Assembly: GCA_041393965.1 (NCBI GenBank)
Contig: JAWKJB010000002.1
Span: 339 to 64,338, forward strand
Reading direction: 5' to 3'
From: Acidimicrobiia bacterium
Lineage (GTDB): Bacteria > Actinomycetota > Acidimicrobiia > Spongiisociales > UBA5794
Length of the DNA stretch: 64,000 bases
Both the position numbers and the translations under genes were made by a program. Positions 9,520 to 63,824 of this stretch are shown one piece after another. The first letter of the stretch is position 1, and every line of letters starts with the position of its first letter. The notes under the pieces are model-generated. The model had not been told where the DNA came from and did not search any database. It saw only the letters and a program-made list of their open reading frames with translations.

Positions 9520-9523
9520 GTAT

Positions 9524-45706: not shown

Positions 45707-45829
45707 GGCATCACTCCTGTCATCGTGCTCCTGTCTGCCTGCGTTCGTCAACCCGATTCGATCAATCCGATTACCCGGTTTGCTCCCGTCAACCGGATTC
45801 GGTCGATCTGACGGACCCGGTCGGTTCGG

Positions 45830-46576: not shown

Positions 46577-46608
46577 ATTGCTTCCTTTCGTTCGACCCGT
46601 ACCCAGGG

Positions 46609-46729: not shown

Positions 46730-46744
46730 GGGGAGACGCGATGG

Positions 46745-49390: not shown

Positions 49391-49923
49391 GCCGCGGCGC
49401 CCTGCGCAAGTCGCATGCCTGCAGCGAGCGCCTCGAGGTTCTTCTTTCGGTGCTGGGGCGGAACCCGCGCAGCCACCGCCCGTTCGAGCGCCGCACCGTC
49501 GACAAGGCCGGTATGGGCCTGGAGGACACCGAGCGCAACGACGCCTGTGGCGAGTTCGCCACCGGTGACCGCCCGCGCTGTGTCGACGACGGGGAAGAAC
49601 ACGGCGGTGTCGTCCGGCTCCTCGAGGACGCAGCGGGAGTCGATGATCAGCGTGCTTCCGACCGCCAAATCCGGCTTGTACTTGTCGAGAGCCTTCTGCG
49701 ACAGCGCAACAAGCGTATCGATGCTGTCGGCGAGCGGAAACCCAACCGTGTCGGTCGCGATCACCACATCGGAACGGCTCGAACCGCCCCTTGATTGGGG
49801 TCCGTACAGCTGGCTGTGCGTCGCCCGCTTCCCGGAAAGGATCGCGGCTTCCGCAAGGATCCTGCCTGCGGTCACCACACCTTGCCCGCCCGCGCCAGCG
49901 ATCCTGATCTCATTGCGAGCCAC
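49387..49923 (-). CDS. 2-oxoacid:ferredoxin oxidoreductase gamma subunit
   Basis: GTG start with AGGAGG SD; IRIAGAGGQGVVTAG (POR gamma motif). Confidence 0.75.
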   Translation of the reverse strand: MARNEIRIAGAGGQGVVTAGRILAEAAILSGKRATHSQLYGPQSRGGSSRSDVVIATDTVGFPLADSIDTLVALSQKALDKYKPDLAVGSTLIIDSRCVLEEPDDTAVFFPVVDTARAVTGGELATGVVALGVLQAHTGLVDGAALERAVAARVPPQHRKKNLEALAAGMRLAQGAAA

Positions 49924-50785: not shown

Positions 50786-51927
50786 GCGCGTCCTCCGTGG
50801 ATCTTGGTGAGCACTTCCTCGATCGCGATCGGGGTGACCGGCTCGCCTCCCGAGCGCAGGTGCGGGACGATCTCGGCCTTGCCCATCGCGGAGCGTTCGA
50901 CTTCCCCGACCAGCTGCCCGAGGTTCATCTCGGCAACGACGATCGTGTCGACTCGTTCGGCCACAGCCCTCACCTGTTCGGTTGGGAACGGCCACACGGT
51001 CAGCGGTCTGATCATGCCTGCCTTGATCCCGCGCTCGCGTGCCCGTTCGACCGCGAGCTTGGCGGAGCGTCCAACGATGCCGTAGGCGAACACGGCGATG
51101 TCGGCATCATCGAGGAGGTACTCGTCGACTTCGACGACCTCATCGAGGTGGGCATCGATCTTGTTGTGGAGCCGGCTGATGAGCGCCTCGGCAACGGCGG
51201 TGTCGTTGGTGGGGAACCCCCGGTGGTCGTGGGCGAGGCCGGTCACATGGAACCGATAGCCGTCCCCGAACGGCGACATCGCGGGGACACCATCGGGATC
51301 GGCGTCCTTGGGCCAGAACTCGTCGAGGGCCGTACCTGGTGTCACGCGGTCGACCACGGTCACCGAATCCGGGAGCTCGACGCTTTCACGGGTGTGCCCG
51401 ATGATCTCGTCGTAGAGGAGAATGACCGGTGTGCGGAAGCGCTCCGCGAGGTTGAAGGCCTTGACGGTGAGGTCGAAGACCTCCCCGACCGACGAGGGGG
51501 CAAGCACGATGGCGGGATGGTCGCCGTGGGTCCCCCACCGTGCCTGCATCACATCTCCCTGCGATGGCGAGGTTGGCATGCCCGTGCTGGGACCTCCCCG
51601 CATCACATTGACGATCACACAAGGGACCTCGGCGATCGTCGCAAACCCGACATGCTCTTGCATGAGGGAGAAGCCCGGCCCGCTCGTCGCGGTCATCGCT
51701 TTGGCACCGGCGATCGACGCACCGATGACCGCCGCGAGGGACGAGATCTCGTCCTCCATCTGCACCGAGACTCCACCGACCTCGGGCATGCGCCGCACCA
51801 TGTGCTCGGCGATCTCCGACGATGGGGTGATGGGATACCCCCCGTAGAAGGTGCAACCGGCGGCGAGGGCGCCCTTGACGCAGGCCTCGTTGCCCTGGAT
51901 GAGCTTTGCGGTTGTCGCGGTTGTCAT
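50782..51927 (-). CDS. 2-oxoacid:ferredoxin oxidoreductase alpha subunit
   Basis: LIQGNEACVKGALAAGCTFYGGYPITPSSEI N-terminus; GGGAGGA SD. Confidence 0.85.
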   Translation of the reverse strand: MTTATTAKLIQGNEACVKGALAAGCTFYGGYPITPSSEIAEHMVRRMPEVGGVSVQMEDEISSLAAVIGASIAGAKAMTATSGPGFSLMQEHVGFATIAEVPCVIVNVMRGGPSTGMPTSPSQGDVMQARWGTHGDHPAIVLAPSSVGEVFDLTVKAFNLAERFRTPVILLYDEIIGHTRESVELPDSVTVVDRVTPGTALDEFWPKDADPDGVPAMSPFGDGYRFHVTGLAHDHRGFPTNDTAVAEALISRLHNKIDAHLDEVVEVDEYLLDDADIAVFAYGIVGRSAKLAVERARERGIKAGMIRPLTVWPFPTEQVRAVAERVDTIVVAEMNLGQLVGEVERSAMGKAEIVPHLRSGGEPVTPIAIEEVLTKIHGGRA

Positions 51928-52802
51928 CGGGTGGTCCTCCCTGATGCTGCCGGCACCGGATCGGCTGTCTCCGCCGGTGGGTGGATGGTGATTGCAAAGT
52001 CGGGGCACAACATCTCGCACAGACGACACCCGGTGCAGGCATCGGCATCGACGATCAGCAGCGTGCCGTCGGTATCGAGCTTCAGGCAGTACTCGGGACA
52101 GACCCTCGGGCAGATGTCGCAGCTCTTGCACCAGTCCTGGCGGATCTCGATGAGGTGGGGTCCCGGGGCAACCTCGGGATCCGGCCCCGGGAGCGGGATC
52201 TCCGCCGACGGTGCCTGCCGCCCTGCACGGAACGCCGCAAGGTTGACCTCTTCGGTTCCTTTCGGCACGAGGCTGGTGATTGCCGCTTCCCAGTGTTCGG
52301 TGTCGATGTCGACGAAGGCAGCCACCGATCCGAGGATGACGCTGTTCGCGGCCCGCACATTGCCGAGTGCGGCGGCGTTTGCCGTTGCGTCAACGAAGCG
52401 GGATTCGAGTCTCCGGTTCTTGAACAGGTCGCCGTCGAATCGGGGATAGGCCCTCGACCAGGCCCTTGTATCGTTGCACGCTCCCGGCGGGACGATCGTC
52501 TTGAGGTCGGTGACGACGGCACCGCCGTCGCGGACATACTCGACCCATCGGATGGCTTCCGCCCATTCGAAAGCGGCAAGGACCTCGGCGCTTCCCTTCT
52601 CGACGAGCGGGCTGTCGACCTTGTCGCGTTTCCAACGGATGTGGCTCACGACGGAGCCGCCCCGTTGGGCCATGCCGTGCACCTCGCTCTGTTTGACATC
52701 GAACCCTGCTCGCATAAGCGCATCGGCGACGATCATGCTCGCGAGGATGACGCCCTGGCCCCCGACGCCTGCCAGCAAGAGGCCCTTCGCACCGTCAGCC
52801 AT
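51924..52802 (-). CDS. iorB: Indolepyruvate/2-oxoacid ferredoxin oxidoreductase beta (gamma-type) subunit fused to a C-terminal 2x[4Fe-4S] ferredoxin domain
   Basis: LLAGVGGQGVILAS (POR_C); C-terminal CKSCDICPRVCP...CTGCRLCEMLCP. Confidence 0.6.
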   Translation of the reverse strand: MADGAKGLLLAGVGGQGVILASMIVADALMRAGFDVKQSEVHGMAQRGGSVVSHIRWKRDKVDSPLVEKGSAEVLAAFEWAEAIRWVEYVRDGGAVVTDLKTIVPPGACNDTRAWSRAYPRFDGDLFKNRRLESRFVDATANAAALGNVRAANSVILGSVAAFVDIDTEHWEAAITSLVPKGTEEVNLAAFRAGRQAPSAEIPLPGPDPEVAPGPHLIEIRQDWCKSCDICPRVCPEYCLKLDTDGTLLIVDADACTGCRLCEMLCPDFAITIHPPAETADPVPAASGRTTR

Positions 52803-54606
52803 CGCCGTTCCTCCCGTTCATGTCAACCGGCACGATTGCGAGCGGTGGGCAGAGCTGTGCACACAGGGTGCAGCCCGTGCAGGTCACCGTATCGATGACC
52901 ACCTTGCGCCGTCCTTCGAACATCTCGTCGGACCACACGATCGATGGGCAACCGGCGGTCATGCACGCTTGGCACGCCGTGCAGTCCTCTGCGATCACCC
53001 GGAATGGTGTATCCCTGACTTTGATCGGGGCTTCGACACACGGGCGGTTGGTGATGACCACCGACGGGCCGACATGGGCGATCGCCCCTTCGATGGCGCC
53101 ATAGGTTGCTGCCATGTCGTAGGGGTCGATGACGCGGACATCCCGGACACCGAGGGACTTGCATAGCCCTACCAGATCGACAGGAGTCGCCTCCTGCCCT
53201 TGCAATGTGGTCCCGGTGCCCGGATGCTCCTGCCCGCCGGTCATCGCTGTTGTTCCGTTGTCCAAGATGATGACGGTGATGTTTGCATCGGCGTAGACCG
53301 CGTCGGCGAGACCCGCGATACCGCCGTGGAGGAAGGTCGAGTCACCGATGGTGGCGACGACGGGGCCTGCGGCGCCTCCCGATGCCGCGAGTCCGACCGC
53401 CATGCCGATGCTCGAGCCCATCGCGACACAGGTGTCCATTGACGACAGCGGCTCGAGCGCGGCAAGCGTGTAACACCCGATGTCGCCGGTGACGACGGCG
53501 CCGAGGCGCTTGAGGGCAAGGTACGGAGGGGTGTGCGGACAGCCGGGGCACATGAGCGGTGGCCGCGCAACCGTGCCGGGAGCTGGCTCGATCGCGAGGT
53601 ACTCGGGAAGGACTCCGGCTGCGGCAAATCCTCGCCTGACGGCATCGGGGCTGAGCTCGCCAGCCTGGGGAAAGAACTCCTTGCCTTCGACGGCGAGCCC
53701 AGCGGCGCGCAGATCGTTCTCGACGAGGGGATCGAGCTCCTCGATCACGAAGAGCCGATCGACGGTCTTTGCGAACGCTTTGATCCGTTCCATCGGGAGG
53801 GGATAGCTCATGCCGAGCTTGAGGGCCTTGGCGTCCGGGAGCACCTCACGGAGGTAGTGGTGGGCGATACCGGAGGTGACCACGCCGATCGAGGTATCCG
53901 TCCCGGATTCCTCGATCAGGGGGCTCTGGTCTGCGAATTCTTTCAGGTCCTGCAACCGCCGCAGGAGTGCCGGTCGTCGCCCTCGGGCGTGCCCAGGAAT
54001 CATGACGTACTTCTGGGGGTTACGCTCGAAGCCGGCGACCGGCCTTTCCTGGCGGTCCCTGAGTTCTACGACCCCTCGGTTGTGCGAAACCCGTGTCGTC
54101 GTGCGAACGAGAACCGGGGTGTCGTATTGCTCGGAGATCTCAAATGCGAGCGCCGTGAACCGCTTGGCTTCGGCGCTGTTTGCGGGTTCGAGGAGCGGTA
54201 CGGAGCCCATCCGGGCGTAGGCCCTCGTGTCCTGCTCGTTCTGGGAACTGTGCATGCCGGGATCGTCCGCGACGAGGATGACGAGGCCCGCCCCGACCCC
54301 CGTGTAGGCCATCGTCATGAAGGTGTCTGCGGCAACATTGAGCCCGACATGCTTCATCGTGCACAGGGTGCGGATGCCGCCGAGTGACGCGCCGAGGGCA
54401 ACATCGAGGGCGACCTTCTCGTTGGGGGACCAGCGGACCTGCATGTCGGTGCGGTTCGCGATCGATTCGAGTGTCTCGGTGCTCGGCGTTCCCGGATAGC
54501 CGACGGCCATGAGGGCCCCCGCTTCCACCGCCCCGCGGGCGATGGCCTCGTTGCCGGACAGGAGGACGGTCGTGCCCTCGTCGACACGCGTTTCGAGGGT
54601 CGTCAT
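52795..54606 (-). CDS. iorA: Indolepyruvate:ferredoxin oxidoreductase alpha subunit (fused TPP/pyrimidine-binding domains with a C-terminal 4Fe-4S)
   Basis: 603 aa; LLSGNEAIARGAVEAG N-terminus, GDIGCYT, C-terminal CTACQAC...CTGCTLCAQLCP. Confidence 0.75.
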   Translation of the reverse strand: MTTLETRVDEGTTVLLSGNEAIARGAVEAGALMAVGYPGTPSTETLESIANRTDMQVRWSPNEKVALDVALGASLGGIRTLCTMKHVGLNVAADTFMTMAYTGVGAGLVILVADDPGMHSSQNEQDTRAYARMGSVPLLEPANSAEAKRFTALAFEISEQYDTPVLVRTTTRVSHNRGVVELRDRQERPVAGFERNPQKYVMIPGHARGRRPALLRRLQDLKEFADQSPLIEESGTDTSIGVVTSGIAHHYLREVLPDAKALKLGMSYPLPMERIKAFAKTVDRLFVIEELDPLVENDLRAAGLAVEGKEFFPQAGELSPDAVRRGFAAAGVLPEYLAIEPAPGTVARPPLMCPGCPHTPPYLALKRLGAVVTGDIGCYTLAALEPLSSMDTCVAMGSSIGMAVGLAASGGAAGPVVATIGDSTFLHGGIAGLADAVYADANITVIILDNGTTAMTGGQEHPGTGTTLQGQEATPVDLVGLCKSLGVRDVRVIDPYDMAATYGAIEGAIAHVGPSVVITNRPCVEAPIKVRDTPFRVIAEDCTACQACMTAGCPSIVWSDEMFEGRRKVVIDTVTCTGCTLCAQLCPPLAIVPVDMNGRNGDG

Positions 54607-55862
54607 TGCGTGCTCCCGGCGGCGATCAGGTCAAGGATCTCGTCCTCGGCGAGGACATGGTCCGATGTCTTTGCGGCCGCGAGGATCTTGTCGACCGTCG
54701 CGTCGTCGGTCTCACGGCCCCGTTTCGTGAGCCATGCGACCGCATTGGCCCTTCCGCTCATGGGGCCGACGGTGATCTCTTGTTCCCTCCCGAGGAGGTC
54801 TGCGGGTACGCCGCTGTAGATGCGGTTGGCGAGCCATTCGTCGCCCGTACGAATGGCCTTGAGGACGGCTGCGGCGTGCACACCGGTGCTCGTCTCGAAT
54901 GCGTCACTCCCGATCGCTGGCCAGTTCTTGGGAATCGGTGTGCTGGTCGCCTTGGAGACCGCCTCACAGTAGGCGGGGAGGGTCGTGAGGTCGAGGTCGA
55001 GCCAGCCCATCAGCTTGAGGTTGACGAGCAGCATCTCCATGGGCGTGTTGCCTGCCCGTTCCCCGATGCCGATCCCGCACCCATGCACACGGTGGGCTCC
55101 CGAGGCGAGAGCCTGAATCGAGTTGATGACGGACAGGTTGCGGTCCCGGTGGCCGTGATAGTCGATCTTGATGTCTTCGCCGGTTTCGGCGACGATGTCG
55201 ACGGCGAGTTCGACGAGCGCCCGTACCCCCCATGGGGTTGCGTGGCCGACGGTGTCGGAGAGGCAGATGCGCCGTGCGCCCGCTTCGATCGCCGCGGTGT
55301 ACAGCGTGCGGAGGATCTCTGGCCTTGCCCGGGTCGTGTCCTCGGTCACATACATGACCTCGAGACCTTCCTTGCGGGCGAGATTGATGGCGTCGACGGT
55401 TGTCTTTGCGAGGAAGTCGACATCCCAGCCCTCGACGAATTGGCGGATGGGGCTCGTGCCGAGGAACAGGGAAGCTTCGATCGCGACGCCGGAGCGTTGC
55501 TGGGCCTCGGCGATGGGGAGGATGTCTGCTGGGTGGGTCCGGCCTGCACAGTTGGGCTCGATCGAGAAGCCTTCCTTGTCGATCTCTTCGGCAAGGGCGG
55601 TGACATGGTCAAGTACGGTCGCGTCGGCGCCCGGGTAGCCGAGATCGACGGCCTGGATGCCGAGGCCAGCCATGCGGTGGAGGATCTCGAGTTTCTCATC
55701 GAGGTTCGGTTGACGGACCGACGGGCTCTGGAGGCCGTCACGCAGCGTCTCGTCGTCGAGCTCCACCGTTGCAGGTGCCGGCGTGCCCTCCATGCCGACG
55801 ACATTCCAGTCGTAGAGCAGCTCCTGTTCCCGAGCGCTGGTGTCTTGCCCCATGCCCTCGCC
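54603..55862 (-). CDS. DRE-TIM metallolyase (LeuA/HMGL-like; 2-isopropylmalate/homocitrate/citramalate synthase family)
   Basis: LDDETLRDGLQ motif; HxH metal site (IDYHGHRD). Start chosen at the internal ATG 55862 preceded by a perfect AAGGAGG SD; the longer ORF N-terminus lacks an SD. Confidence 0.75.
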   Translation of the reverse strand, partial: GEGMGQDTSAREQELLYDWNVVGMEGTPAPATVELDDETLRDGLQSPSVRQPNLDEKLEILHRMAGLGIQAVDLGYPGADATVLDHVTALAEEIDKEGFSIEPNCAGRTHPADILPIAEAQQRSGVAIEASLFLGTSPIRQFVEGWDVDFLAKTTVDAINLARKEGLEVMYVTEDTTRARPEILRTLYTAAIEAGARRICLSDTVGHATPWGVRALVELAVDIVAETGEDIKIDYHGHRDRNLSVINSIQALASGAHRVHGCGIGIGERAGNTPMEMLLVNLKLMGWLDLDLTTLPAYCEAVSKATSTPIPKNWPAIGSDAFETSTGVHAAAVLKAIRTGDEWLANRIYSGVPADLLGREQEITVGPMSGRANAVAWLTKRGRETDDATVDKILAAAKTSDHVLAEDEILDLIAAGSTQ

Positions 55863-56207
55863 TCCTTTGCGTTGGATCGATCCCTCGCAGCCGTCCGGCC
55901 GGTCGGTTGACAAGGTAGTCATAGAATCCCAAGGACGGGGGCGACCGGCAATCCGCCTTTTGTATCATTTATCTGATGCATTCGCATCACGACAGTGATC
56001 GTGGTGCACAAATCACGATCCGGCAAGAGGATCCCGACGATTCGTCAGGCGACGGCCCGGACCGCAGGTAGGCTGAATGCATCACAGAAATGGGGTCGGT
56101 GGCTCATTGACGCAGCGAGGTCACGGGGAGACACTCGGGTCTGGACGACCGACCGGCCGGAAGGCAGATGCGGTTCGGCGTGCCCACGGCCACACGAAGG
56201 AGGAGCA

Positions 56208-56627
56208 TTGACGACAGCTGTGATGGGGGCATCATTCCGACCGGGGGAGCTCGAGATCCACGACGACGGCACCGGCAACCTGCTCGGCAGCCGATGCACC
56301 AACTGCGGGGCGTGCTTCTTCCCGATCCGGGAGGCCTGTGCGGGATGCCTGAGCCAGGAACTGGACACGATCCGGTTCTCGACCGAGGGGACGCTGTACA
56401 CCTATTCGATCGTACGCCAGTCGATCCCCGCGTTCGAGGTTCCGTACGCGCTCGGGTATGTGGACTTCCCTGAGGGTGTCCGCATCATGGGCCAGATCTC
56501 AGGGATAGACTTCGATGACATCGAGATCGGCATGCCGATGTCGCTCTCGCTTGAACCGTTCGGTGAGGATGCCGATGGCAACCCACTCACGGGCTACCGA
56601 TTTCGTCCCTCGGAGGTGTCTGAATGA
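56208..56627 (+). CDS. Zn-ribbon OB-fold (DUF35) protein, thiolase partner
   Basis: CTNCGACFFPIREACAGC zinc ribbon; TTG start 5 nt after the AAGGAGG SD; 4-nt overlap with the thiolase gene. Confidence 0.65.
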   Translation: MTTAVMGASFRPGELEIHDDGTGNLLGSRCTNCGACFFPIREACAGCLSQELDTIRFSTEGTLYTYSIVRQSIPAFEVPYALGYVDFPEGVRIMGQISGIDFDDIEIGMPMSLSLEPFGEDADGNPLTGYRFRPSEVSE

Positions 56628-57766
56628 CCGATGTCCACATCGTCGGGGTCGGCATGACCCGCTTCGGCAAGCATCCGGACAGCGATGCCACCGACCTCGG
56701 CTCGGCCGCGCTGCTCGAGGCAGTCGCCGACGCCGGCATCGACGCACGCCTCATCGAGTCGGCCTATGTCGGCCATGTGTTCCAGGGCATGGTGACGGGC
56801 CAGCGGATCCTCGCCCAGGTCGGCCTTGCAGGCCTTCCGCTCGTCAATGTCGAGAACGCCTGCAGCTCCGGTGCCACCGCGATCCGCGAGGCATCCCTTG
56901 CGATCCGTGCCGGTGAGAACGATGTTGTGGTGGCGGTCGGCACCGAGCACCTCACCTCGAAGTTCGGGGGAGCCCTCACCCCGGATCCAAGCGATCCGGA
57001 AGCGGCCATCGGGGCGACGATGCCGGGGATCTACGCCATGCGCGCCACCCGGTACATGGCCGATCATGGCATGACCCGCGAACAGCTCGCCCTGATCCCT
57101 GTCAAGAACAAGGCGAACGCGGCGCAGAATCCGCTCGCCCATTTCCGTACGCCGATCACGGTGGAAGATGTGCTCGAGTCGCGTCCCGTCGCCGATCCGC
57201 TCCACCTCCACGACTGCTCGCCGGTGACCGACGGCGCTGCTGCGGTGATCATGATGAGTGATGCCGCAGCAGCGAGGTACGCCAATGGGCGAGGTGTCAG
57301 GCTCGCCGCCTCGGCGCTTCGTTCCGGCTCGGTCGAGACTGAGCCAACGACGATGACCTTCGAACCGCTCACCTGGGCGACGGCGCAAGATGCCTACGAG
57401 AAGGCAGGTGTTGGCCCAGACGAGGTCGACTTCGCCGAGGTCCATGACTGCTTCTCGATCGCTGAGGTGCTGCGCGTTGAAGGCCTCGGCCTCTTCGAGC
57501 AGGGCAGCTATCCCCGAGCGGTCGAGCGTGGCGAAGCCAACATCAACGGCCGTCTGCCGGTGAACCCGAGTGGCGGCCTCATCGGCAAAGGGCACCCGCT
57601 CGGCGGCACGGGAGTGGCCCAGGTCGTCGAGCTGGTGCGTCAGCTCCGCGGGGAGGCGGGAGATCGCCAGATCGAGGGAGCCAAGGTGGGCCTCGCCCAC
57701 TGTCGGGGCGGAAAGGCAGTCGGGATCGAGGGAGCTGCGTGCACCGTTCAGATCTTGACTCGCTGA
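56624..57766 (+). CDS. SCP-x-type thiolase (thiolase-domain protein that pairs with DUF35)
   Basis: HIVGVGMTRFGKH, NVENACSSGATAI (active Cys), GGLIGKGHPLGGTG. Confidence 0.8.
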   Translation: MTDVHIVGVGMTRFGKHPDSDATDLGSAALLEAVADAGIDARLIESAYVGHVFQGMVTGQRILAQVGLAGLPLVNVENACSSGATAIREASLAIRAGENDVVVAVGTEHLTSKFGGALTPDPSDPEAAIGATMPGIYAMRATRYMADHGMTREQLALIPVKNKANAAQNPLAHFRTPITVEDVLESRPVADPLHLHDCSPVTDGAAAVIMMSDAAAARYANGRGVRLAASALRSGSVETEPTTMTFEPLTWATAQDAYEKAGVGPDEVDFAEVHDCFSIAEVLRVEGLGLFEQGSYPRAVERGEANINGRLPVNPSGGLIGKGHPLGGTGVAQVVELVRQLRGEAGDRQIEGAKVGLAHCRGGKAVGIEGAACTVQILTR

Positions 57767-58914
57767 AAGCGTCTGGCACCGAGCAACGGTCGGTGCCGTT
57801 CGTGCTGATGCGCGGCGGCACCAGCAAAGCCGTCTTCCTCAGATCCGAGCATGTCCCCGAAGGTGCCGCCGCAGCCGACGCCATGATCTTGGCGCTGTTC
57901 GGCAGTCCGGACCCGCGTCAGATCGACGGACTCGGAGGCGCCGACCTCCTCACCTCCAAGCTTGCCATCATCGGGCCAACGACCCGACCCGACGCCGACA
58001 TCGACTACACCTTTGCGCAGGTGAGCATCACCGAGGCGGTCGTCGACTACGACATCAACTGCGGGAACATCTCTGCGGCGGTGGGGGCTTACGCCGTCGA
58101 CGAGGGCCTCGTGCCGGTGGTTGTGCCGGTGACGACGGTCGCGATCCACAATACGAACACCGGACGGGTGCTGCGCGCAGGTGTTCCGATCGTCGACGGA
58201 AGGGCCGCCGTCGAGGGCTCGTACCGTGTCCACGGGGTGCCGGGCACCGGAGCCCCCATCTCCCTCGACTTTGCGCAGACCGCGGGGGGAATCACCGGGT
58301 CGCTGCTGCCCACCGGCAATGTGTCGGATGTCCTCGACACCGAGATCGGCCCCGTTGAGGTCACGATCGTTGACCTTGCCAACCTGACGGTCTTCATGCG
58401 GGCCGAAGCGGTTGGCATGCGCGGGAACGAGACGCCGGGGGAGTTCACCGAGGGGAACCTCGAAGCGATTTCGGCCGTGAAAGCGAGCGCCGCTACCCTC
58501 CTTGGCATGCCAACCGACGGCCTCACCCCCGTGCCAGCGATCGTGTCGGAACCCGCGGCGTATGTGGCCTATGGCTCCGAGGACAAGGTCGAGGCCTCCG
58601 AGATCGACCTCGTCGCGCGGGTGGTCGGCGGCCGCCCGCCGGTCGTGCACAAGGCGTATCCGGGAACGGTCGCCGCCTGCACCGGTGTTGCCGCTTCCAT
58701 TGAAGGGACCACCGTGCATGCCGTCACGAGCCCCGATCGTGTGGATGCGACCAGGTTCGCGATCGGGCACCCTGCGGGCGTCATGCCGGTGACTGCGCGG
58801 GTGGCACGCAGCGCCGGGAATTGGGAAGCCGAGGAAGCCACCTATCTGCGGACCGCGCGCCGGATCGCGCAGGGTGAGGCCTTCATCCGCAACGATGGGG
58901 TGCTGCCGGGATGA
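57739..58914 (+). CDS. PrpF/AcnD-accessory-family isomerase (methylaconitate/methylitaconate isomerase-like)
   Basis: VPFVLMRGGTSKAVF signature; start uncertain (the ORF overlaps the thiolase stop by 28 nt; a later GTG is possible). Confidence 0.7.
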   Translation: MHRSDLDSLKASGTEQRSVPFVLMRGGTSKAVFLRSEHVPEGAAAADAMILALFGSPDPRQIDGLGGADLLTSKLAIIGPTTRPDADIDYTFAQVSITEAVVDYDINCGNISAAVGAYAVDEGLVPVVVPVTTVAIHNTNTGRVLRAGVPIVDGRAAVEGSYRVHGVPGTGAPISLDFAQTAGGITGSLLPTGNVSDVLDTEIGPVEVTIVDLANLTVFMRAEAVGMRGNETPGEFTEGNLEAISAVKASAATLLGMPTDGLTPVPAIVSEPAAYVAYGSEDKVEASEIDLVARVVGGRPPVVHKAYPGTVAACTGVAASIEGTTVHAVTSPDRVDATRFAIGHPAGVMPVTARVARSAGNWEAEEATYLRTARRIAQGEAFIRNDGVLPG

Positions 58915-59393
58915 CCGACGGGGTGCTCACGCTCGAGATCAACGGGGAGCAGCGCTCCGCGATCATCGACACCAACCGGACCCTGCTGGAGTTCCTCCGT
59001 GAGGATCTGTCCATGACCGGCACCAAGCACGGCTGCGACCTCGGAGAGTGCGGGACCTGCACCGTTCTCGTCGACGGCAAGCCGGTGCTGTCGTGCATCA
59101 CCCTTGCGTGGCAGGTTGCCGGAAGCACGATCACCACGATCGAGGGCCTCTCCGACGGGCGGTTCCCTGATGAGCTCCAGACCGCATTCGCAGAGCTGAA
59201 CGCCGCGCAATGCGGATACTGCACACCGGGCATGATCCTGTCGGCGCGCTCGCTCCTCGATCGGAACCCTGACCCTTCGACCGACGAGATCAACGAAGCC
59301 CTCGCGGGCAACCTGTGCCGGTGCACCGGCTATGTGAAGATCATCAGCGCCGTCCACCTTGCGGCGACCCGTAGCGCACCGGAGTCCGGCTGA
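58911..59393 (+). CDS. (2Fe-2S)-binding small subunit of a xanthine-dehydrogenase-family molybdoenzyme
   Basis: CDLGECGTCTV and CGYCTPG...CRCTGY motifs. Confidence 0.85.
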   Translation: MTDGVLTLEINGEQRSAIIDTNRTLLEFLREDLSMTGTKHGCDLGECGTCTVLVDGKPVLSCITLAWQVAGSTITTIEGLSDGRFPDELQTAFAELNAAQCGYCTPGMILSARSLLDRNPDPSTDEINEALAGNLCRCTGYVKIISAVHLAATRSAPESG

Positions 59394-61777
59394 TGGGAGC
59401 CGTCGGGATACCGGCAGCCCGTGTCGACGGGATGGAACAGACGACCGGGCGGACCGCCTATGTCGATGACATGAAGCTCCCCGGCATGCTGATCGGTCGC
59501 CAGCTCAGAAGCACCGCCGTGCACGCGAGGATCGTCAGCATCGACACCTCGAAGGCCGAAGCGCTCGAGGGTGTGAAGGCAGTCATCACGGGCGCCGACC
59601 TCCCGATCACCTACGGCATTCTTCCGGTGAGCCAGGATGAACCGGCCCTCGCCATCGACCGTGTGCGTCACGCAGGGGAAGCAGTCGCCGCGGTTGCCGC
59701 GGTCGATGCCAAGACCGCTGAACGGGCACTGGACCTCATCGAAGTCGTGTATGAGCCGCTCGACACGATCGCAACCTATGAGGACGCCTTCGACGACAAC
59801 CTCGACCTGCTCCACGGTGACGGGAAGGGCAGGAACACCCACCGAGCGGCGGCCCTCGAGTTCGGCGATGTCGATGAGGGTTTCGCCGCAGCGGACCACA
59901 TCAGGGAGGATGTGTTCTACTTCGAGGGCAACACCCACGCTGCCCTCGAGATGCACGCCGCCCTCGCGTCGTGGGAGCCGTCGGGGAAGGTAACGCTGTG
60001 GTCCTCGACCCAGGTTCCCCACTATGTCCACCGGACCCTCGCCAAGGTGCTCGAGATGCCCGCGGGGCAGATCAGGGTGATTGCTGCACCGGTCGGCGGC
60101 GGTTTCGGGGGCAAGACCGACCCGTTCTCACATGAGATCGTTGCGGCGAAGCTGTCGATGATGACCGGGCGCCCTGTCAAGATCACCTTGACCCGTGAGG
60201 AGGTGTTCTACTGTCACCGCGGTCGCCACCCAGTGCTCATGTGGGTGAGGACCGGCTTCGATTCCGAGGGCCGCATCACGGCGAGCCACTTCAAGACCTA
60301 CCTCGACGGTGGCGCCTACGGCAGCTACGGCATCGCCACCCTGTACTACACCGGCGCACTCCAGACCACCACCTATTCGATCCCCAACTATCGGTTCGAG
60401 GGTGTGAGGGTCTATACGAACAAGCCGGTGTGTGGCCCGAAGCGGGGCCACGGAACGCCGCAGCCCCGGTTCGCACTCGAGTGTCAGCTCGACAAGGCCG
60501 CGGAGGATCTCGGCATCGATCCCGTGTCGATCCGGCTCGTGAATGCCGTGCCGGAGCATTCGATGACGGTCAACCATCTTCGGATCACGAGCTGTGGGCT
60601 CACCGAATGCATCGAACGCGTCGCTGAGGCTTCCGGCTTTGCCGAAAAACACGGCAAGCTCCCGGAGGGACGCGGTATCGGGCTCGCGGTTGGGGCCTAC
60701 ATGTCGGGGGCAGGGCTCCCCATCTACTTCAACGACATGCCCCAATCAGAGGTCCAGATCAAGGTCGATCGTGGCGGGGGAGTCACCGTGTATTCGATGG
60801 CGACCGACATCGGCCAGGGTTCCACCTCGATGCTTGCGACGATCGTCGCAGAGACGCTCGGGCTCGATCCGACCGACATTGCGATGGTGACCGCCGACAC
60901 GGACCTCACCCCCGTCGATCTGGGGAGCTACTCGTCGAGGGTCACCTTCATGGGCGGCAACGCGGCCCTCGCAGCGGGGGTCAACCTCCGTGATCGAATC
61001 GTCACCGCGGTCGCAGACAAACTCGGGGTGGCCCCCGGGGATCTTGTCGCCCGCAACGGACGCATCGAGGTGGACGGGGATCCTGACACCGGCGTTCCGT
61101 GGCTGGAGGCGGTCACGATCACGATCGCCGCCACGGGATCCCTCGTCGTGTCCGGCAGCTACAAGGCGCCGGAACTCGCCGGATCCCACAAAGGTGCCGG
61201 TGTGGGCATCTCGCCCGCCTACAGCTATTCGGCCGCCGTCGTGGAGCTCGACTGTGACTCGACGACCGGGTTGGTGAAAGTTCACAAGGTCTGGCTCGCC
61301 CACGATATCGGGACCTCGATCAATCCGCTCCTCGTCGAGGGCCAGATCGAAGGTGGGGTTTATATGGGTCTCGGTGAGGCGTTGTATGAGGAACAGAGCT
61401 TCCGTGGAGCGCTGCTCCGGGGGCCGTCGCTGTTGGATTACAAGATGCCGACGAGCCTCGACATGCCGCCGGTCGAGTCGATCATCGTCGATACGGATGA
61501 CCCGGAGGGCCCGTTCGGTGCCAAGGAGGTGGGCCAGGGGCCGCTTCTTCCGGTGATCCCGGCCGTGGCGAACGCCATCTACGATGCGATCGGTATCCGC
61601 ATGGATGCCACCCCGTTCACCCCTGACCGGATCGTTTCCGCGCTCCGCGATCGGGCACGGGGGCGGGAGGGCAGGTACGGCCCTGACTCGGTTCCCGACT
61701 TCGAGTTCCCGCCGCTCGTCAAGGTGGAGCCACCCGAGGCGTTCGCACCGATGGCGACGAAGGTCGGTGCACCATGA
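59393..61777 (+). CDS. Molybdopterin-binding large subunit of a xanthine-dehydrogenase-family enzyme
   Basis: 794 aa with the Ald_Xan_dh_C/C2 domain layout; 1-nt overlap with the small-subunit gene. Confidence 0.85.
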   Translation: MGAVGIPAARVDGMEQTTGRTAYVDDMKLPGMLIGRQLRSTAVHARIVSIDTSKAEALEGVKAVITGADLPITYGILPVSQDEPALAIDRVRHAGEAVAAVAAVDAKTAERALDLIEVVYEPLDTIATYEDAFDDNLDLLHGDGKGRNTHRAAALEFGDVDEGFAAADHIREDVFYFEGNTHAALEMHAALASWEPSGKVTLWSSTQVPHYVHRTLAKVLEMPAGQIRVIAAPVGGGFGGKTDPFSHEIVAAKLSMMTGRPVKITLTREEVFYCHRGRHPVLMWVRTGFDSEGRITASHFKTYLDGGAYGSYGIATLYYTGALQTTTYSIPNYRFEGVRVYTNKPVCGPKRGHGTPQPRFALECQLDKAAEDLGIDPVSIRLVNAVPEHSMTVNHLRITSCGLTECIERVAEASGFAEKHGKLPEGRGIGLAVGAYMSGAGLPIYFNDMPQSEVQIKVDRGGGVTVYSMATDIGQGSTSMLATIVAETLGLDPTDIAMVTADTDLTPVDLGSYSSRVTFMGGNAALAAGVNLRDRIVTAVADKLGVAPGDLVARNGRIEVDGDPDTGVPWLEAVTITIAATGSLVVSGSYKAPELAGSHKGAGVGISPAYSYSAAVVELDCDSTTGLVKVHKVWLAHDIGTSINPLLVEGQIEGGVYMGLGEALYEEQSFRGALLRGPSLLDYKMPTSLDMPPVESIIVDTDDPEGPFGAKEVGQGPLLPVIPAVANAIYDAIGIRMDATPFTPDRIVSALRDRARGREGRYGPDSVPDFEFPPLVKVEPPEAFAPMATKVGAP

Positions 61778-62769
61778 CGATCCAGGTCCCGCCGGTCGGA
61801 TATGTCACACCCGCAACGCTCGACGAGGCGGTCGAGCTGCTCGCCGATCCGACCGTTTCCGTGATCGGTGGTGGGACCGATCTCGTCCCGAAGATGAAGC
61901 GGCGACAGGCCACACCGGTCACGCTCGTGTCGCTTGCCCACATCGACGACATGGCAGGGATCAGGGTCGACGACACCGGCAACTGCATCATCGGGGCATC
62001 GACGACCCTCGTTGAGATCGTCACCTCCCCAACGGTCCCCAGGGTCGTTGCCGTGGCCGCCGAATCGGTTGCTTCACCGCAGATCCGGAACACGGGCACG
62101 ATCGGCGGGAACCTGTGCATCGATACACGCTGCAACTACATCGACATGCCGCTCGACTGGCGGCGGACCCGCGGGCACTGCCTCAAGGACGGCGGTGACA
62201 CCTGTTGGGTTGCGCCGAAGAGCAACAAGTGCTGGGCGATCAGCTCGACGGATCTCGCCCCGGTGATGATCGCCCTCGACGCGACGGTGCGGCTCGTCAG
62301 CGGAAGGGGAGAACGCTCGATCCCCGTGGAGGCGCTCTACCACAACGACGGCATGGACTACCTCACGAAGGCGCCAGACGAGATCCTCATCGATGTGACC
62401 ATCCCACCGTTCGACGGACGCGCGAGCTACCAGAAGCTGCGCAGGCGGGGCTCGATCGATTTCGGTCTGCTCGGGGTGGCTGCTGCCGTGAGTTTTGATG
62501 CGGGAGGCGTCTGTACGACCGCACGGATCGCCGTCGGCGGTATCGCATCGGCGCCGTTGCGAGCGACCGACGCTGAGGAATACCTCGTGGGCAAGGTGCT
62601 GACCGACGAAACGATCGACGAAGCTTCGGAGCTCGTCTCGAAGGCATTCCGGAGCCAGGACAACACCGACACGGGGTCTCGCTACCGCAAGTGGATGATC
62701 CCGGTCCATGCAGCCAAGGCGCTCCACGAGGTCGCGGGCGGCGACGGTGAGGCGGAAGGGAACCGATGA
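61774..62769 (+). CDS. FAD-binding medium subunit carrying a cysteine-rich insertion (C-x4-C-x15-C-x7-C-x8-C), HcrB-like
   Basis: FAD_binding_5/CO_deh_flav_C; insertion GNLCIDTRCNYIDMPLDWRRTRGHCLKDGGDTCWVAPKSNKCW. Confidence 0.8.
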   Translation: MTIQVPPVGYVTPATLDEAVELLADPTVSVIGGGTDLVPKMKRRQATPVTLVSLAHIDDMAGIRVDDTGNCIIGASTTLVEIVTSPTVPRVVAVAAESVASPQIRNTGTIGGNLCIDTRCNYIDMPLDWRRTRGHCLKDGGDTCWVAPKSNKCWAISSTDLAPVMIALDATVRLVSGRGERSIPVEALYHNDGMDYLTKAPDEILIDVTIPPFDGRASYQKLRRRGSIDFGLLGVAAAVSFDAGGVCTTARIAVGGIASAPLRATDAEEYLVGKVLTDETIDEASELVSKAFRSQDNTDTGSRYRKWMIPVHAAKALHEVAGGDGEAEGNR

Positions 62770-63824
62770 CGGAGAGCAGATACGCCTGGCGGTTCGTTGC
62801 CGTCGGTGAACCCCTCGAGAAGGTCGAAGCTGCCGGTCGCGAGCCACAAGACCACGAAGTCGTGGTGCAGGTGGCGGGCTGCGGCATCTGTCACACCGAC
62901 CTCGGATTCCTCGACGGGAGCGTCTCGACGAAGGCAGGGCTGCCACTCGTCCTCGGACACGAGATCGCGGGTACCGTCGTCGAGGCCGGCGCCGGCGCTG
63001 AGGAGTGGCCTGGTCGTGATGTGCTCGTACCCGCAGTGATCCCGTGTGGGGACTGTGATCTGTGCAACAAGGGCAAGGGCAATGCCTGCACACGCCAGCT
63101 GATGCCTGGAAACGATCTTGATGGAGGCTGGGCAACCCATGTGACGATTCCCACGCGGGGGCTCTCGGTGATCGAAGACCTGCCCGAACGGTACGAACTC
63201 GCCGACTTGTCGGTGATCGCTGACGCGGTCACAACACCGCTCCAGGCTGTGCGTCGCGCCGGCGTCACCGACGGTGACCTCGCCGTGGTGATCGGCGTCG
63301 GCGGTGTCGGTTCGTACGCGGTGCAGATCGCTGCTGCGAGCGGGGCCAAGGTGGTCGCGATCGACATCGACGACGACCGGCTCGCCGTCCTTGAGGATCA
63401 TGGGGCGGCAGCGACCGTGAACTCGAGGGGGATGGATCCGAGGGAGGTGCGCGACGCCGTGCGGTTCCACGCCAAGCAGCTCGGCGCGCCGTCGATTGGC
63501 TGGAAGATCTTCGAATGCTCCGGCACCGCTCCGGGTCAGGAAACCGCGTACGGTCTCCTCGGTCCGCAGGCCACCCTCGCGGTGGTGGGGTTCACGATGG
63601 ACAAGATCTCGGTACGGCTCTCGAACCTGATGGCGTTCGATGCGACCGCATTCGGGACCTGGGGATGTCCGCCAGAGCGGTATCCCGAGGCGGTCGAACT
63701 CGTGATCTCCGGGAAGGTCGATCTCGCCCCGTTCATCCGCAAAGTCCCGATGGCCGAGATCGCTCGGGCCATCGACGATGCCCACAACCATGTCGATCCA
63801 CGACGAACCATTCTCATCCCATAG
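62766..63824 (+). CDS. Zinc-binding MDR alcohol dehydrogenase family protein
   Basis: GCGICHTD, GHEIAG, catalytic/structural Zn Cys cluster CGDCDLCNKGKGNAC, GVGGVGS Rossmann. Confidence 0.8.
   Translation: MTESRYAWRFVAVGEPLEKVEAAGREPQDHEVVVQVAGCGICHTDLGFLDGSVSTKAGLPLVLGHEIAGTVVEAGAGAEEWPGRDVLVPAVIPCGDCDLCNKGKGNACTRQLMPGNDLDGGWATHVTIPTRGLSVIEDLPERYELADLSVIADAVTTPLQAVRRAGVTDGDLAVVIGVGGVGSYAVQIAAASGAKVVAIDIDDDRLAVLEDHGAAATVNSRGMDPREVRDAVRFHAKQLGAPSIGWKIFECSGTAPGQETAYGLLGPQATLAVVGFTMDKISVRLSNLMAFDATAFGTWGCPPERYPEAVELVISGKVDLAPFIRKVPMAEIARAIDDAHNHVDPRRTILIP

What the first reader, a model, noticed from the sequence alone, without database searches (positions are those of the whole stretch)
58911..62769. 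Xanthine-dehydrogenase-family enzyme in HcrCAB gene order with a [4Fe-4S]-type cysteine insertion in the FAD subunit: candidate 4-hydroxybenzoyl-CoA reductase-class dehydroxylase
The subunit order small(2Fe-2S)-large(Mo)-medium(FAD) matches hcrCAB rather than coxMSL. The medium subunit carries C-x4-C-x15-C-x7-C-x8-C (CIDTRC...GHC...DTC...NKC), whose last four Cys reproduce the spacing of the [4Fe-4S] loop unique to HcrB. The last four cysteines match the HcrB spacing as recalled from memory, and this recall needs checking against the Thauera aromatica HcrB sequence. Together with ferredoxin-reducing OFORs next door this implies a reductive, ferredoxin-driven aryl dehydroxylation step in a high-GC, probably actinobacterial genome, where such enzymes are not commonly described.
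Basis: partly seen in the sequence, partly recalled or inferred. Interest (0 to 1): 0.7.

Follow-up and report, generated by a model that had tools for sequence, protein, structure and literature searches.

The report
Glutamate-less 4-hydroxybenzoyl-CoA-reductase-like molybdenum enzyme
An uncultured Acidimicrobiia bacterium carries a three-subunit molybdenum enzyme that most resembles the aromatic-ring dehydroxylase 4-hydroxybenzoyl-CoA reductase and sits in an anaerobic benzoyl-CoA operon, but its widespread uncharacterised lineage has glutamine where this enzyme family has its catalytic glutamate.

Summary
Three translationally coupled genes encode a small 2x[2Fe-2S] subunit, a large Mo subunit and a medium FAD subunit. 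[quoted passage not shown] The medium subunit aligns without gaps to HcrB across the [4Fe-4S] loop, and Cys120/136/144/153 match HcrB Cys122/138/146/155.

Context supports a reductive aryl-CoA dehydroxylase. The next gene is Had, above its NCBIfam cut-off. Syntenic Acidimicrobiia relatives continue with Oah, Dch and a four-subunit class I benzoyl-CoA reductase. A 68%-identical relative sits beside phenylphosphate synthase- and carboxylase-like genes.

It is not a canonical HcrCAB:
- All three subunits score below the NCBIfam equivalog cut-offs.
- The large subunit falls in a separate clade (100% bootstrap) found in many phyla, known only from MAGs or unnamed metagenome sequences.
- All 203 members examined have Gln where canonical HcrA has Glu726, the catalytic Glu of the xanthine oxidase family. 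All 120 canonical sequences keep Glu.

Verdict: a new variant of a known kind, of moderate interest. The [4Fe-4S] loop is not unique to HcrB, and bcr genes in this Acidimicrobiia order have already been noted in print.

The parts
58911..59393 (+). Small (gamma) subunit, 160 aa, two [2Fe-2S] clusters (Cys42/47/50/62 and Cys101/104/136/138)
   Evidence: Best PDB hit is 1RM6_C at 2.3e-52, essentially tied with NdhS (3hrd_D). Best NCBIfam hit is TIGR03193 at 193.5 bits, below the 257.8 cut-off. Cys positions.
59393..61777 (+). Large (alpha) molybdopterin subunit, 794 aa, HcrA-like, 'Q-type' clade
   Evidence: 1RM6_A scores 645 bits against 300 for the next PDB hit. TIGR03194 scores 881.6 bits, below the 994.55 cut-off. 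Identity to T. aromatica HcrA is 44%.
61535..61537 (+). CAG codon for Gln715, at the position of HcrA Glu726 / CoxL catalytic Glu / bovine XO Glu1261
   Evidence: Alignments; column counts; codon.
61774..62769 (+). Medium (beta) FAD subunit, 331 aa, with the HcrB-type insertion
   Evidence: 1RM6_B scores 187 bits against 109 for the next hit. Pfam FAD_binding_5 and CO_deh_flav_C. TIGR03195 scores 252.2 bits, below the 404.55 cut-off.
62116..62232 (+). [4Fe-4S] loop: Cys115 (variable, not a ligand) and Cys120/136/144/153 (equivalent to HcrB Cys122/138/146/155)
62766..63824 (+). 6-hydroxycyclohex-1-ene-1-carbonyl-CoA dehydrogenase (Had), start overlaps the medium-subunit stop
   Evidence: TIGR03201 scores 458 bits, above the 338.65 cut-off. 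Junction.
57739..58914 (+). PrpF-family isomerase/tautomerase-like gene, stop overlaps the small-subunit start
   Evidence: Pfam PrpF 3.9e-98. Best NCBIfam hit is 4-oxalomesaconate tautomerase at 284.6 bits, below the 440 cut-off. Conserved upstream of the trio in L001-L008, L041 and L088.
55995..57766 (+). DUF35 (ChsH2-type OB/Zn-ribbon) protein plus SCP-x-type thiolase, a BbsAB-like pair
54603..55922 (-). HMGL-like (isopropylmalate/citramalate-synthase-like) enzyme, divergently transcribed
51924..54606 (-). Indolepyruvate/arylpyruvate:ferredoxin oxidoreductase: IorA (603 aa) and IorB fused to a 2x[4Fe-4S] delta-like domain (292 aa)
   Evidence: IorA TIGR03336 scores 663 bits, above the 650.9 cut-off. 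IorB matches POR and Fer4.
49387..51927 (-). Three-subunit 2-oxoacid:ferredoxin oxidoreductase (alpha, beta and gamma; Kor-like)
   Evidence: NF006412 scores 564.8 bits, above the 411 cut-off, for the alpha subunit. Beta and gamma give best hits in the same family.
43924..49390 (-). TetR regulator, family III CoA-transferase, enoyl-CoA hydratase, SDR, LeuC/LeuD-like dehydratase. Belongs to the same conserved block; its role in the pathway is unresolved.
   Evidence: The same block accompanies the trio in L041.

Best explanation
The three genes encode a ferredoxin-dependent, reductively operating xanthine-oxidase-family enzyme of the 4-hydroxybenzoyl-CoA reductase type. It most likely removes the para-hydroxyl of 4-hydroxybenzoyl-CoA, or of a closely related aryl-CoA, to give benzoyl-CoA.

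Proposed electron path:
1. The adjacent Kor-like and Ior 2-oxoacid:ferredoxin oxidoreductases reduce ferredoxin.
2. Electrons enter at the extra [4Fe-4S] cluster of the medium subunit (Cys120/136/144/153).
3. They pass via FAD and the two [2Fe-2S] clusters of the small subunit to the molybdenum cofactor in the large subunit. This is the inverted electron flow described for T. aromatica 4-HBCR.

Benzoyl-CoA is then dearomatised by an ATP-dependent class I benzoyl-CoA reductase. That enzyme is encoded just downstream in the closest relatives and would lie beyond the window's end here. The product is processed by Dch, Had (the next gene in this operon) and Oah.

The enzyme belongs to a distinct lineage in which the family's catalytic glutamate is glutamine. 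The acid/base chemistry at Mo must therefore differ in detail from canonical 4-HBCR.

What is shown: subunit identities, cofactor-binding motifs, clade membership, the Glu-to-Gln substitution and the gene context. What is inferred: the substrate, the electron donor and the direction of catalysis.
For: - All three subunits have 4-HBCR (1RM6) as best solved hit. The large subunit scores 645 bits against 300 for the next hit. The Hcr A/B/C models are the best NCBIfam hits.
- The HcrB [4Fe-4S] loop is conserved without gaps.
- The genes form one operon with overlapping start and stop codons running PrpF-small-large-medium-Had. Had is above its curated cut-off.
- Syntenic loci L001 (71% id) and L005 (Acidimicrobiia UBA5794, 80% id) continue with Oah (560 bits, above the 464 cut-off), a Dch-like gene and four BCR-like subunits whose best hits are BcrA/B/C/D.
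- L088 (68% id, same Gln) has the trio between PpsA/PpsB-like genes, a UbiD decarboxylase whose best hit is phenylphosphate carboxylase beta, a PaaK-family CoA ligase and a four-subunit BCR. This is the anaerobic route phenol -> 4-hydroxybenzoate -> 4-hydroxybenzoyl-CoA -> benzoyl-CoA.
- In the NJ tree the nearest Glu-type lineage, at only 50% bootstrap as sister (L089, Ignavibacteriales), also lies beside BCR ATPase subunits, Ior and a Had-like dehydrogenase.
- Two ferredoxin-reducing OFORs lie beside the operon.
- Lack of the catalytic Glu argues against an oxidative hydroxylase. The conserved Glu activates Mo-OH for hydroxylation (PMC10420851).
Against: - All three subunits score below the NCBIfam equivalog cut-offs.
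- Gln715 replaces Glu726, which is kept in all 120 canonical HcrA sequences.
- 49 alignment columns are fixed differently between the two clades, several in segments that line the Mo site in this family by analogy.
- The clade is not the exclusive sister of canonical HcrA (0 of 100 bootstraps).
- No aryl-CoA ligase is present in the window; only a family III CoA-transferase is.
- About 70 of 80 GTDB loci of the same clade (Pyrinomonadaceae, Gemmatimonadota, Chloroflexota and others) show no benzoyl-CoA-pathway gene within 10 kb. Some sit beside PaaK-like ligase and PaaA-like genes instead.
- BCR, Oah and Dch are not visible in the window itself, because it ends 176 bases after Had.
- No member of the clade has been assayed.
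Confidence: 0.62

Rival explanations
1. Same chemistry, different substrate. The Gln-type clade reductively removes another substituent conjugated with the thioester, still yielding benzoyl-CoA or a BCR substrate. Candidates are 2-hydroxybenzoyl-CoA, 3,4-dihydroxybenzoyl-CoA, and 4- or 2-aminobenzoyl-CoA (reductive deamination). To my knowledge these activities have been reported in anaerobes without assigned genes.
For: Scores fall below the equivalog cut-offs. 49 clade-specific substitutions include loops next to the conserved Gln214, GGGFG and Arg motifs, plus E726Q. The clade is separate and has 100% bootstrap support. The benzoyl-CoA-pathway context is equally compatible with any benzoyl-CoA-forming reductase.
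Against: L088 places the same clade next to phenylphosphate synthase- and carboxylase-like genes, whose product is 4-hydroxybenzoate. No aminobenzoate- or salicylate-specific genes were recognised in the window.
Confidence: 0.2
2. It is not a dehydroxylase of the benzoyl-CoA pathway. The clade has a more general role in mostly aerobic bacteria, for example an acyl- or aryl-CoA oxidoreductase or hydroxylase comparable to furoyl-CoA dehydrogenase, or a reductase of some other oxo or N-oxide substrate. Its position in the Acidimicrobiia operon would then be a lineage-specific recruitment.
For: Most GTDB loci of the clade are in Acidobacteriota, Gemmatimonadota, Methylomirabilota and Chloroflexota without BCR, Had or Oah within 10 kb. 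In Pyrinomonadaceae the trio lies in a folK-panB-panC ... MocA-peroxiredoxin setting. L086 has PaaA-like genes nearby. L041 shares the LeuCD/SDR/ECH/CoA-transferase/HMGL/DUF35/thiolase/PrpF block but not Had, Oah or Dch.
Against: Loss of the catalytic Glu is hard to reconcile with a hydroxylase. The low-potential [4Fe-4S] entry loop is retained in all members. The gene is translationally coupled to Had in the window. BCR and phenol contexts occur in three separate lineages. A PaaK-family CoA ligase often follows the trio, which fits a CoA-ester substrate.
Confidence: 0.13
3. It is a catalytically dead or purely electron-transferring paralogue, because the essential Glu is missing.
For: Gln715 sits at the catalytic Glu position.
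Against: Gln is strictly conserved in all 203 sequences examined across many phyla, within an otherwise unchanged GAKE(A/V)G-Q-GPL motif. The Mo-binding motifs (Gln207, GGGFGG, Arg351) are intact, and the genes lie in catabolic operons. This pattern indicates purifying selection on a working active site.
Confidence: 0.05

Closest known systems
4-hydroxybenzoyl-CoA reductase HcrCAB of Thauera aromatica (PDB 1RM6/1SB3; HbaBCD in Rhodopseudomonas palustris)
   Same: Gene order small-large-medium. Three subunits with 2x[2Fe-2S], FAD and Mo. The ~40-residue beta insertion has the identical C-x15-C-x7-C-x8-C ligand spacing. It is the best PDB and NCBIfam match for every subunit, and it is associated with benzoyl-CoA-pathway genes and ferredoxin-reducing OFORs.
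   Different: Identity is only 44% (alpha) and 38% (beta). Scores fall below the equivalog cut-offs. Gln715 replaces Glu726, and 49 positions are fixed differently between the clades. The clade is separate, with other Glu-type lineages branching between it and the canonical one.
Uncharacterised Glu-type HcrA-like lineages (e.g. P0242, fused gamma-alpha, Ignavibacteriales MAG, locus L089)
   Same: 57% identical alpha subunit and the same beta [4Fe-4S] loop. Neighbours include BCR ATPase subunits, IorAB, a Had-like dehydrogenase and MocA. The motif GAKEAG-E-GPL differs from the window clade's only at the Glu/Gln position.
   Different: It keeps the catalytic Glu, and its small subunit is fused to the large one.
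E. coli periplasmic aldehyde oxidoreductase PaoABC (PDB 5G5G)
   Same: XO-family heterotrimer whose FAD subunit also carries a Cys-rich Fe-S insertion at the same site.
   Different: Different Cys spacing: only three of the four Cys columns coincide. Gene order is small-medium-large. The match is much weaker (beta 89.7 bits, alpha 211 bits). It is an oxidative aldehyde-detoxifying enzyme that retains the catalytic Glu (the Glu is from prior knowledge, not tested here).
Urolithin C 9-dehydroxylase Ucdh/UcdCFO of Enterocloster (XO family)
   Same: The only other described reductive phenol dehydroxylase of the XO family. It removes a hydroxyl para to an electron-withdrawing carbonyl (PMC12771579).
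   Different: According to the papers it is NADH-dependent, only ~33% identical to 4-HBCR, and the [4Fe-4S] cluster is not common to the Ucd and Uxd models. It acts on a free lactone, not a CoA ester. Its sequence was not compared here.
Aerobic molybdenum hydroxylases (CoxLMS, nicotinate, quinoline and 6-hydroxypseudooxynicotine dehydrogenases)
   Same: Same overall fold and cofactor set. Alpha matches score 255-300 bits.
   Different: They have no [4Fe-4S] insertion: beta alignments split into two stretches around it. The catalytic Glu is present (CoxL GIGES aligns to the window's VGQGP). Their electron flow is oxidative.

Membership tests
4-hydroxybenzoyl-CoA reductase (HcrCAB/HbaBCD) | Three separate subunits: 2x[2Fe-2S] gamma, FAD beta and Mo-pterin alpha of the xanthine oxidase family | tested here: met
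   Pfam, NCBIfam and PDB hits. Eight Cys in gamma.
4-hydroxybenzoyl-CoA reductase (HcrCAB/HbaBCD) | ~40-residue insertion in beta with four Cys (HcrB 122/138/146/155) binding an extra [4Fe-4S] cluster | tested here: met
   Gapless alignment to 1RM6_B. Cys120/136/144/153 are invariant in 83 related loci.
4-hydroxybenzoyl-CoA reductase (HcrCAB/HbaBCD) | Active-site Glu726 of HcrA (the conserved catalytic Glu of the XO family) | tested here: not met
   The window has Gln715. Gln occurs in all 120 database and all 83 genome homologues of the clade; Glu occurs in all 120 canonical HcrA sequences.
4-hydroxybenzoyl-CoA reductase (HcrCAB/HbaBCD) | Score above the curated NCBIfam equivalog cut-offs (TIGR03194, TIGR03195, TIGR03193) | tested here: not met
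   881.6 against 994.55; 252.2 against 404.55; 193.5 against 257.8. Each is nevertheless the best-scoring model.
4-hydroxybenzoyl-CoA reductase (HcrCAB/HbaBCD) | Placement in the clade that holds the biochemically characterised enzyme | tested here: not met
   NJ tree with 100 bootstraps: window clade 100%, canonical clade 100%, the two as exclusive sisters 0%. Nineteen 50%-cluster representatives score higher with the window than the canonical representative does. This is a distance tree only; no ML tree was made.
4-hydroxybenzoyl-CoA reductase (HcrCAB/HbaBCD) | Genomic association with benzoyl-CoA degradation (Had/Oah/Dch/BCR) and with 4-hydroxybenzoate-forming or -activating enzymes | tested here: inconclusive
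   Had is in the same operon in the window. Oah, Dch and BCR are seen only in syntenic relatives L001 and L005. Phenol-pathway genes and a CoA ligase are seen only in L088. The window holds no ligase and ends after Had.
4-hydroxybenzoyl-CoA reductase (HcrCAB/HbaBCD) | Ferredoxin-dependent conversion of 4-hydroxybenzoyl-CoA to benzoyl-CoA + H2O | not testable with these tools
   Requires an enzyme assay.
PaoABC-type aldehyde oxidoreductase | PaoB-type Cys spacing of the Fe-S insertion and small-medium-large gene order | tested here: not met
   In the alignment with E. coli PaoB, the third ligand column (window Cys144) is not Cys in PaoB, and PaoB has an extra Cys upstream. The window's gene order is small-large-medium.
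Aerobic Mo hydroxylases (CoxLMS / Ndh / Qor / Kdh type) | Catalytic Glu present and medium subunit without an Fe-S insertion | tested here: not met
   Gln715 aligns to the Glu of CoxL GIGES. The insertion is present.

The most novel reading that the evidence does not exclude
The window's enzyme represents a large, phylum-spanning and so far uncharacterised family of [4Fe-4S]-bearing xanthine-oxidase-type enzymes that have given up the family's catalytic glutamate for glutamine. Two readings remain open. Either reductive aryl dehydroxylation does not need that residue, which would revise the mechanistic picture of 4-HBCR, perhaps with help from the co-conserved PrpF-type tautomerase/isomerase. 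Or the family carries out a different, unassigned reduction, such as reductive deamination or ortho-dehydroxylation of aryl-CoAs, or a reaction used by aerobic Acidobacteriota and Gemmatimonadota. The many metagenomic '4-hydroxybenzoyl-CoA reductase' annotations in these phyla would then be misassigned.
Probability: 0.3. Interest if true: 0.65.

Novelty: new variant of a known kind. Interest (0 to 1): 0.48.

Why it matters
4-HBCR is one of only two described xanthine-oxidase-family enzymes that run backwards to remove a phenolic hydroxyl (PMC12771579). Only the proteobacterial lineage has been studied, and the exact chemistry at Mo is unsettled: Birch-type one-electron and two-electron mechanisms have both been proposed.

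A natural, strictly conserved Glu-to-Gln variant that sits in benzoyl-CoA and phenol operons makes the role of that residue directly testable. The relevant mutants are Q715E in this enzyme and E726Q in the T. aromatica enzyme.

The result also warns that KO-based '4-hydroxybenzoyl-CoA reductase' calls merge at least two different active-site types. Such calls are used to infer anaerobic aromatic degradation in soil, sediment and sponge MAGs.

Finally, it adds a full gene-level case for an anaerobic aromatic pathway in uncultured Acidimicrobiia: OFORs, Hcr-like enzyme, Had-Oah-Dch and class I BCR. Previous work on this group mentioned only individual KEGG hits.

Tried and rejected
- Exact-sequence look-up of the window's large subunit, to read beyond the window end, failed twice. 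The protein is in the protein collection as an NCBI Acidimicrobiia MAG, but its contig is not on record. Downstream genes therefore had to be inferred from syntenic relatives.
- The 4-HBCR structure paper (Unciuleac et al. 2004) is not held. HcrA substrate-channel residues could not be taken from the literature. Only family-wide motifs and clade-specific columns were used.
- Literature searches combining 4-HBCR with Acidimicrobiia, and furoyl-CoA dehydrogenase with 4-HBCR, returned nothing. HmfABC could not be compared because no sequence was available.
- I considered that the neighbouring PrpF, LeuCD-like and HMGL-like genes indicate nicotinate-fermentation-type chemistry (Mii/DmdAB). I rejected this as the main reading because no enamidase, B12 mutase or nicotinate-dehydrogenase-like features are present, and the operon runs straight into Had.
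- I considered a CoxLMS/XDH-type aerobic hydroxylase. I rejected it because of the missing Glu, the [4Fe-4S] insertion and the much lower scores.
- The two small ORFs between Dch and BCR in L001 were checked as possible ferredoxins. They are not.
- Window 1-43 kb was scanned for a CoA ligase or bcr genes and none was found.
- Structure prediction was not run. The tool returns no coordinates, so it could not place Gln715 relative to Mo.


Full report
**1. What is in the sequence**

Window 58911-62769 holds three + strand ORFs of 160, 794 and 331 aa. Their ends overlap. The PrpF-like gene and the small subunit share ATGA. The small and large subunits share TGATG. The large and medium subunits share ATGA, as do the medium subunit and the next gene. 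These five genes therefore form one translationally coupled operon.

[quoted passage not shown] The small subunit has exactly eight cysteines in the two canonical groups, 42/47/50/62 and 101/104/136/138.

**2. The cysteine insertion**

The medium subunit contains C115-x4-C120-x15-C136-x7-C144-x8-C153. [quoted passage not shown] The next hit scores 109 bits.

The alignment runs without a gap through the insertion. The five Cys fall on HcrB Cys117/122/138/146/155. The last four are the [4Fe-4S] ligands of HcrB; this ligand assignment comes from my knowledge of the 1RM6 paper, which I could not read here. Medium subunits of CO, nicotinate, quinoline and 6-hydroxypseudooxynicotine dehydrogenases align only as two stretches that skip these ~40 residues.

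In 83 related genomic loci the four ligand Cys are invariant, and the first Cys is Cys or Leu.

The claim that the loop is unique to HcrB is not correct. E. coli PaoB, annotated as the 'FAD-binding Fe-S subunit', has a Cys-rich insertion at the same site with a different spacing. Every HcrA-like lineage I looked at has the HcrB-type loop.

**3. The large subunit**

Its best solved relative is HcrA (1RM6_A), at 645 bits. The next hit, a CoxL, scores 300 bits. The best NCBIfam model is TIGR03194 (HcrA) at 881.6 bits, with XdhA next at 537 bits. Identity to HcrA is 44%.

All three subunits nevertheless fall below the curated equivalog cut-offs: 881.6 against 994.55, 252.2 against 404.55, and 193.5 against 257.8. 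NCBI names the identical database protein only 'xanthine dehydrogenase family protein molybdopterin-binding subunit', from an Acidimicrobiia MAG on a 775,741-bp contig.

**4. An unexpected active-site difference**

HcrA has Glu726 in the motif GAKEASEGM. The window protein has Gln715 in GAKEVGQGP, encoded by CAG at 61535-61537. The same column is the Glu of CoxL's GIGES. From my memory of the bovine sequence, KAVGEPPLF, it corresponds to Glu1261 of bovine XO. This is the conserved residue that activates the Mo-OH group for hydroxylation (PMC10420851).

- Gln is present in all 120 closest database homologues, which are 65-100% identical.
- Gln is present in all 83 loci recovered from GTDB genomes and earlier look-ups, which are 57-80% identical.
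- Glu is present in all 120 sequences that are at least 74% identical to T. aromatica HcrA.

The neighbouring Glu-type lineages carry GAKEAG-E-GPL. The change is therefore a single specific substitution in an otherwise conserved motif.

A further 48 alignment columns are fixed differently in the two clades. Examples are Tyr217->His next to the conserved Gln, GGGFGAR->GGGFGGK, and the loops at HcrA 444-460 and 511-518.

**5. Where the clade sits**

I searched 1.84 billion cluster representatives. Nineteen of them score higher with the window protein than the representative of canonical HcrA does (605 bits, 42% identity).

A neighbour-joining tree with 100 bootstraps gave these supports:

| Grouping | Bootstrap support |
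|---|---|
| Gln-type clade | 100% |
| Canonical HcrA clade | 100% |
| The two as exclusive sisters | 0% |

Other Glu-type lineages branch between them. All named members of these lineages are MAGs.

The Gln-type clade occurs in Acidimicrobiia, Chloroflexota, Acidobacteriota (many Pyrinomonadaceae), Gemmatimonadota, Methylomirabilota, Bipolaricaulota, and a few alphaproteobacterial and archaeal MAGs.

**6. Genomic context**

The gene immediately downstream (62766-63824) is 6-hydroxycyclohex-1-ene-1-carbonyl-CoA dehydrogenase. It scores 458 bits on TIGR03201, above the 338.65 cut-off. The window ends 176 bases later.

Upstream lie the following genes:
- a PrpF-family gene;
- a thiolase with its DUF35 partner (BbsAB-like);
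- a divergent HMGL-like gene;
- IorA, above its cut-off, and IorB fused to a 2x[4Fe-4S] domain;
- a three-subunit Kor-like 2-oxoacid:ferredoxin oxidoreductase, with the alpha subunit above its cut-off;
- a TetR regulator, a family III CoA-transferase, an enoyl-CoA hydratase, an SDR and a LeuCD-like dehydratase.

Positions 1-43 kb are unrelated.

Context in related loci:

| Locus | Source | Alpha identity | Genes with the trio |
|---|---|---|---|
| L005 | Acidimicrobiia UBA5794, closest genome relative | 80% | Gene-for-gene syntenic with the window; continues Had-Oah-Dch, then bcrD/A/B-like genes |
| L001 | Acidimicrobiia-type locus | 71% | Oah 560 bits (above the 464 cut-off); Dch is best hit; four subunits have BcrD/A/B/C as best hits, all below cut-off |
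| L088 | Unassigned MAG, Gln-type | 68% | PpsA/PpsB-like genes, a UbiD enzyme with best hit phenylphosphate carboxylase beta, a PaaK-family ligase, DUF35-thiolase-PrpF, the trio, and a four-subunit BCR |
| L089 | Ignavibacteriales, nearest Glu-type lineage | 57% | BCR ATPase subunits, IorAB and a Had-like dehydrogenase |
| L086, L087 | Armatimonadota and Firmicutes MAGs | 65-66% | An IclR regulator and a PaaK-like ligase; L086 also has PaaA-like genes |

The L088 set is the classical anaerobic route phenol -> 4-hydroxybenzoate -> 4-hydroxybenzoyl-CoA -> benzoyl-CoA.

Against this, about 70 of the 80 GTDB loci show none of these genes within 10 kb. In Pyrinomonadaceae the trio lies between folK-panB-panC and a MocA-like cytidylyltransferase and a peroxiredoxin.

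**7. Most likely mechanism**

By homology and context, the enzyme is a ferredoxin-driven reductive aryl-CoA dehydroxylase. Electrons from ferredoxin, reduced by the neighbouring OFORs, enter at the beta [4Fe-4S] cluster. They pass through FAD and the two [2Fe-2S] clusters to Mo. There the para-hydroxyl of 4-hydroxybenzoyl-CoA is removed as water.

Benzoyl-CoA then goes to the class I BCR and on through Dch, Had and Oah.

The motifs, homology and context are shown by the data. The substrate, the donor and the direction of catalysis are inferred.

The Glu-to-Gln change argues against a hydroxylase. It is compatible with a dedicated reductase, which has no need to deprotonate Mo-OH. It also leaves room for a different substrate or a modified mechanism. 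I put the main reading at about 0.6.

**8. Comparison with what is known, and novelty**

The enzyme works like 4-HBCR and shares its diagnostic [4Fe-4S] loop. It fails three membership tests: the catalytic Glu, the equivalog score and the clade. I therefore file it as a new variant of a known kind rather than as HcrCAB proper.

The taxonomic surprise is modest:
- JGI already labels many members '4-hydroxybenzoyl-CoA reductase'.
- Canonical HcrA also occurs in some Actinomycetota MAGs.
- A 2025 study noted bbsA and bcrBC in marine-sediment UBA5794 Acidimicrobiia (PMC12008989).
- Soil MAG surveys count such genes routinely.

My searches did not find the Glu-less active site described anywhere. 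Those searches did not target it specifically and were limited to the held library. According to PMC12771579, only two reductive dehydroxylases are known in the XO family.

**9. Limits**

- There is no biochemical evidence for any member of the clade.
- The tree is a distance tree without characterised references other than T. aromatica HcrA.
- HcrA substrate-channel residues could not be taken from the structure paper.
- The window itself does not show BCR, Oah, Dch or a CoA ligase.

Noticed in passing
window 55995-58914; also L001, L002-L008, L041, L088: A DUF35-thiolase-PrpF module sits directly upstream of, and translationally coupled to, the Hcr-like trio. It is conserved in Acidimicrobiia, in a Kiloniellaceae MAG and in the phenol-cluster locus L088. 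What a PrpF-type isomerase/tautomerase does next to a dehydroxylase is unexplained.
   Followed up: partly
window 51924-52802 (-): The IorB-like gamma-type subunit carries a C-terminal 2x[4Fe-4S] domain (residues ~220-272). Its best hits are the delta subunits (OorD/PorD/KorD) of other OFORs. This looks like a fusion that may serve the adjacent Kor-like enzyme, which has no delta gene of its own.
   Followed up: no
window 43924-49390 and 54603-55922; L041: A block of LeuCD-like dehydratase, SDR, enoyl-CoA hydratase, family III CoA-transferase, TetR and an HMGL-like synthase/lyase accompanies the trio in the window. In L041 (55-73% identity) it does so without Had, Oah, Dch, Kor or Ior. This suggests a second pathway module linked to the enzyme whose substrate is unknown.
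   Followed up: partly
L089 (Ignavibacteriales MAG) 4964-11833 versus window 51924-62769: IorAB-type arylpyruvate:ferredoxin oxidoreductase genes lie next to the Hcr-like genes in two unrelated phyla. This hints at a functional link, either ferredoxin supply or tyrosine/4-hydroxyphenylpyruvate catabolism.
   Followed up: no
L019 and ~25 other Pyrinomonadaceae/Blastocatellia loci: In these presumably aerobic Acidobacteriota the Gln-type trio sits in a conserved folK-panB-panC / trio / MocA-like cytidylyltransferase / peroxiredoxin arrangement, with no aromatic-catabolic genes within 10 kb.
   Followed up: partly
L001 16762-16983 (-); homologues in L005, L006, L008: A conserved 73-aa ORF with a CxxCxxxC motif lies between Dch and the BCR genes. 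It matches no NCBIfam family and is not a ferredoxin.
   Followed up: no
window 28569-31472 (-) and 31258-32385 (+): A 967-aa ORF with good coding statistics has no Pfam hit. It lies next to a bacterial archaeo-eukaryotic release-factor-like (baeRF family 3) protein.
   Followed up: no
window 35965-38732 (+) and 39796-42148 (-): Several ORFs have good coding statistics but no, or only marginal, family hits: 293 aa, 629 aa, 182 aa, and a 585-aa protein with only a C-terminal F5/8 type C domain.
   Followed up: no
window 25324-28520 and 42169-42720: A P-type ATPase, a SpoIIAA-like protein, a ferritin/Dps-like protein and a hemerythrin lie in the unrelated part of the window. These suggest metal and oxygen handling, consistent with a microaerophilic or facultative lifestyle.
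   Followed up: no
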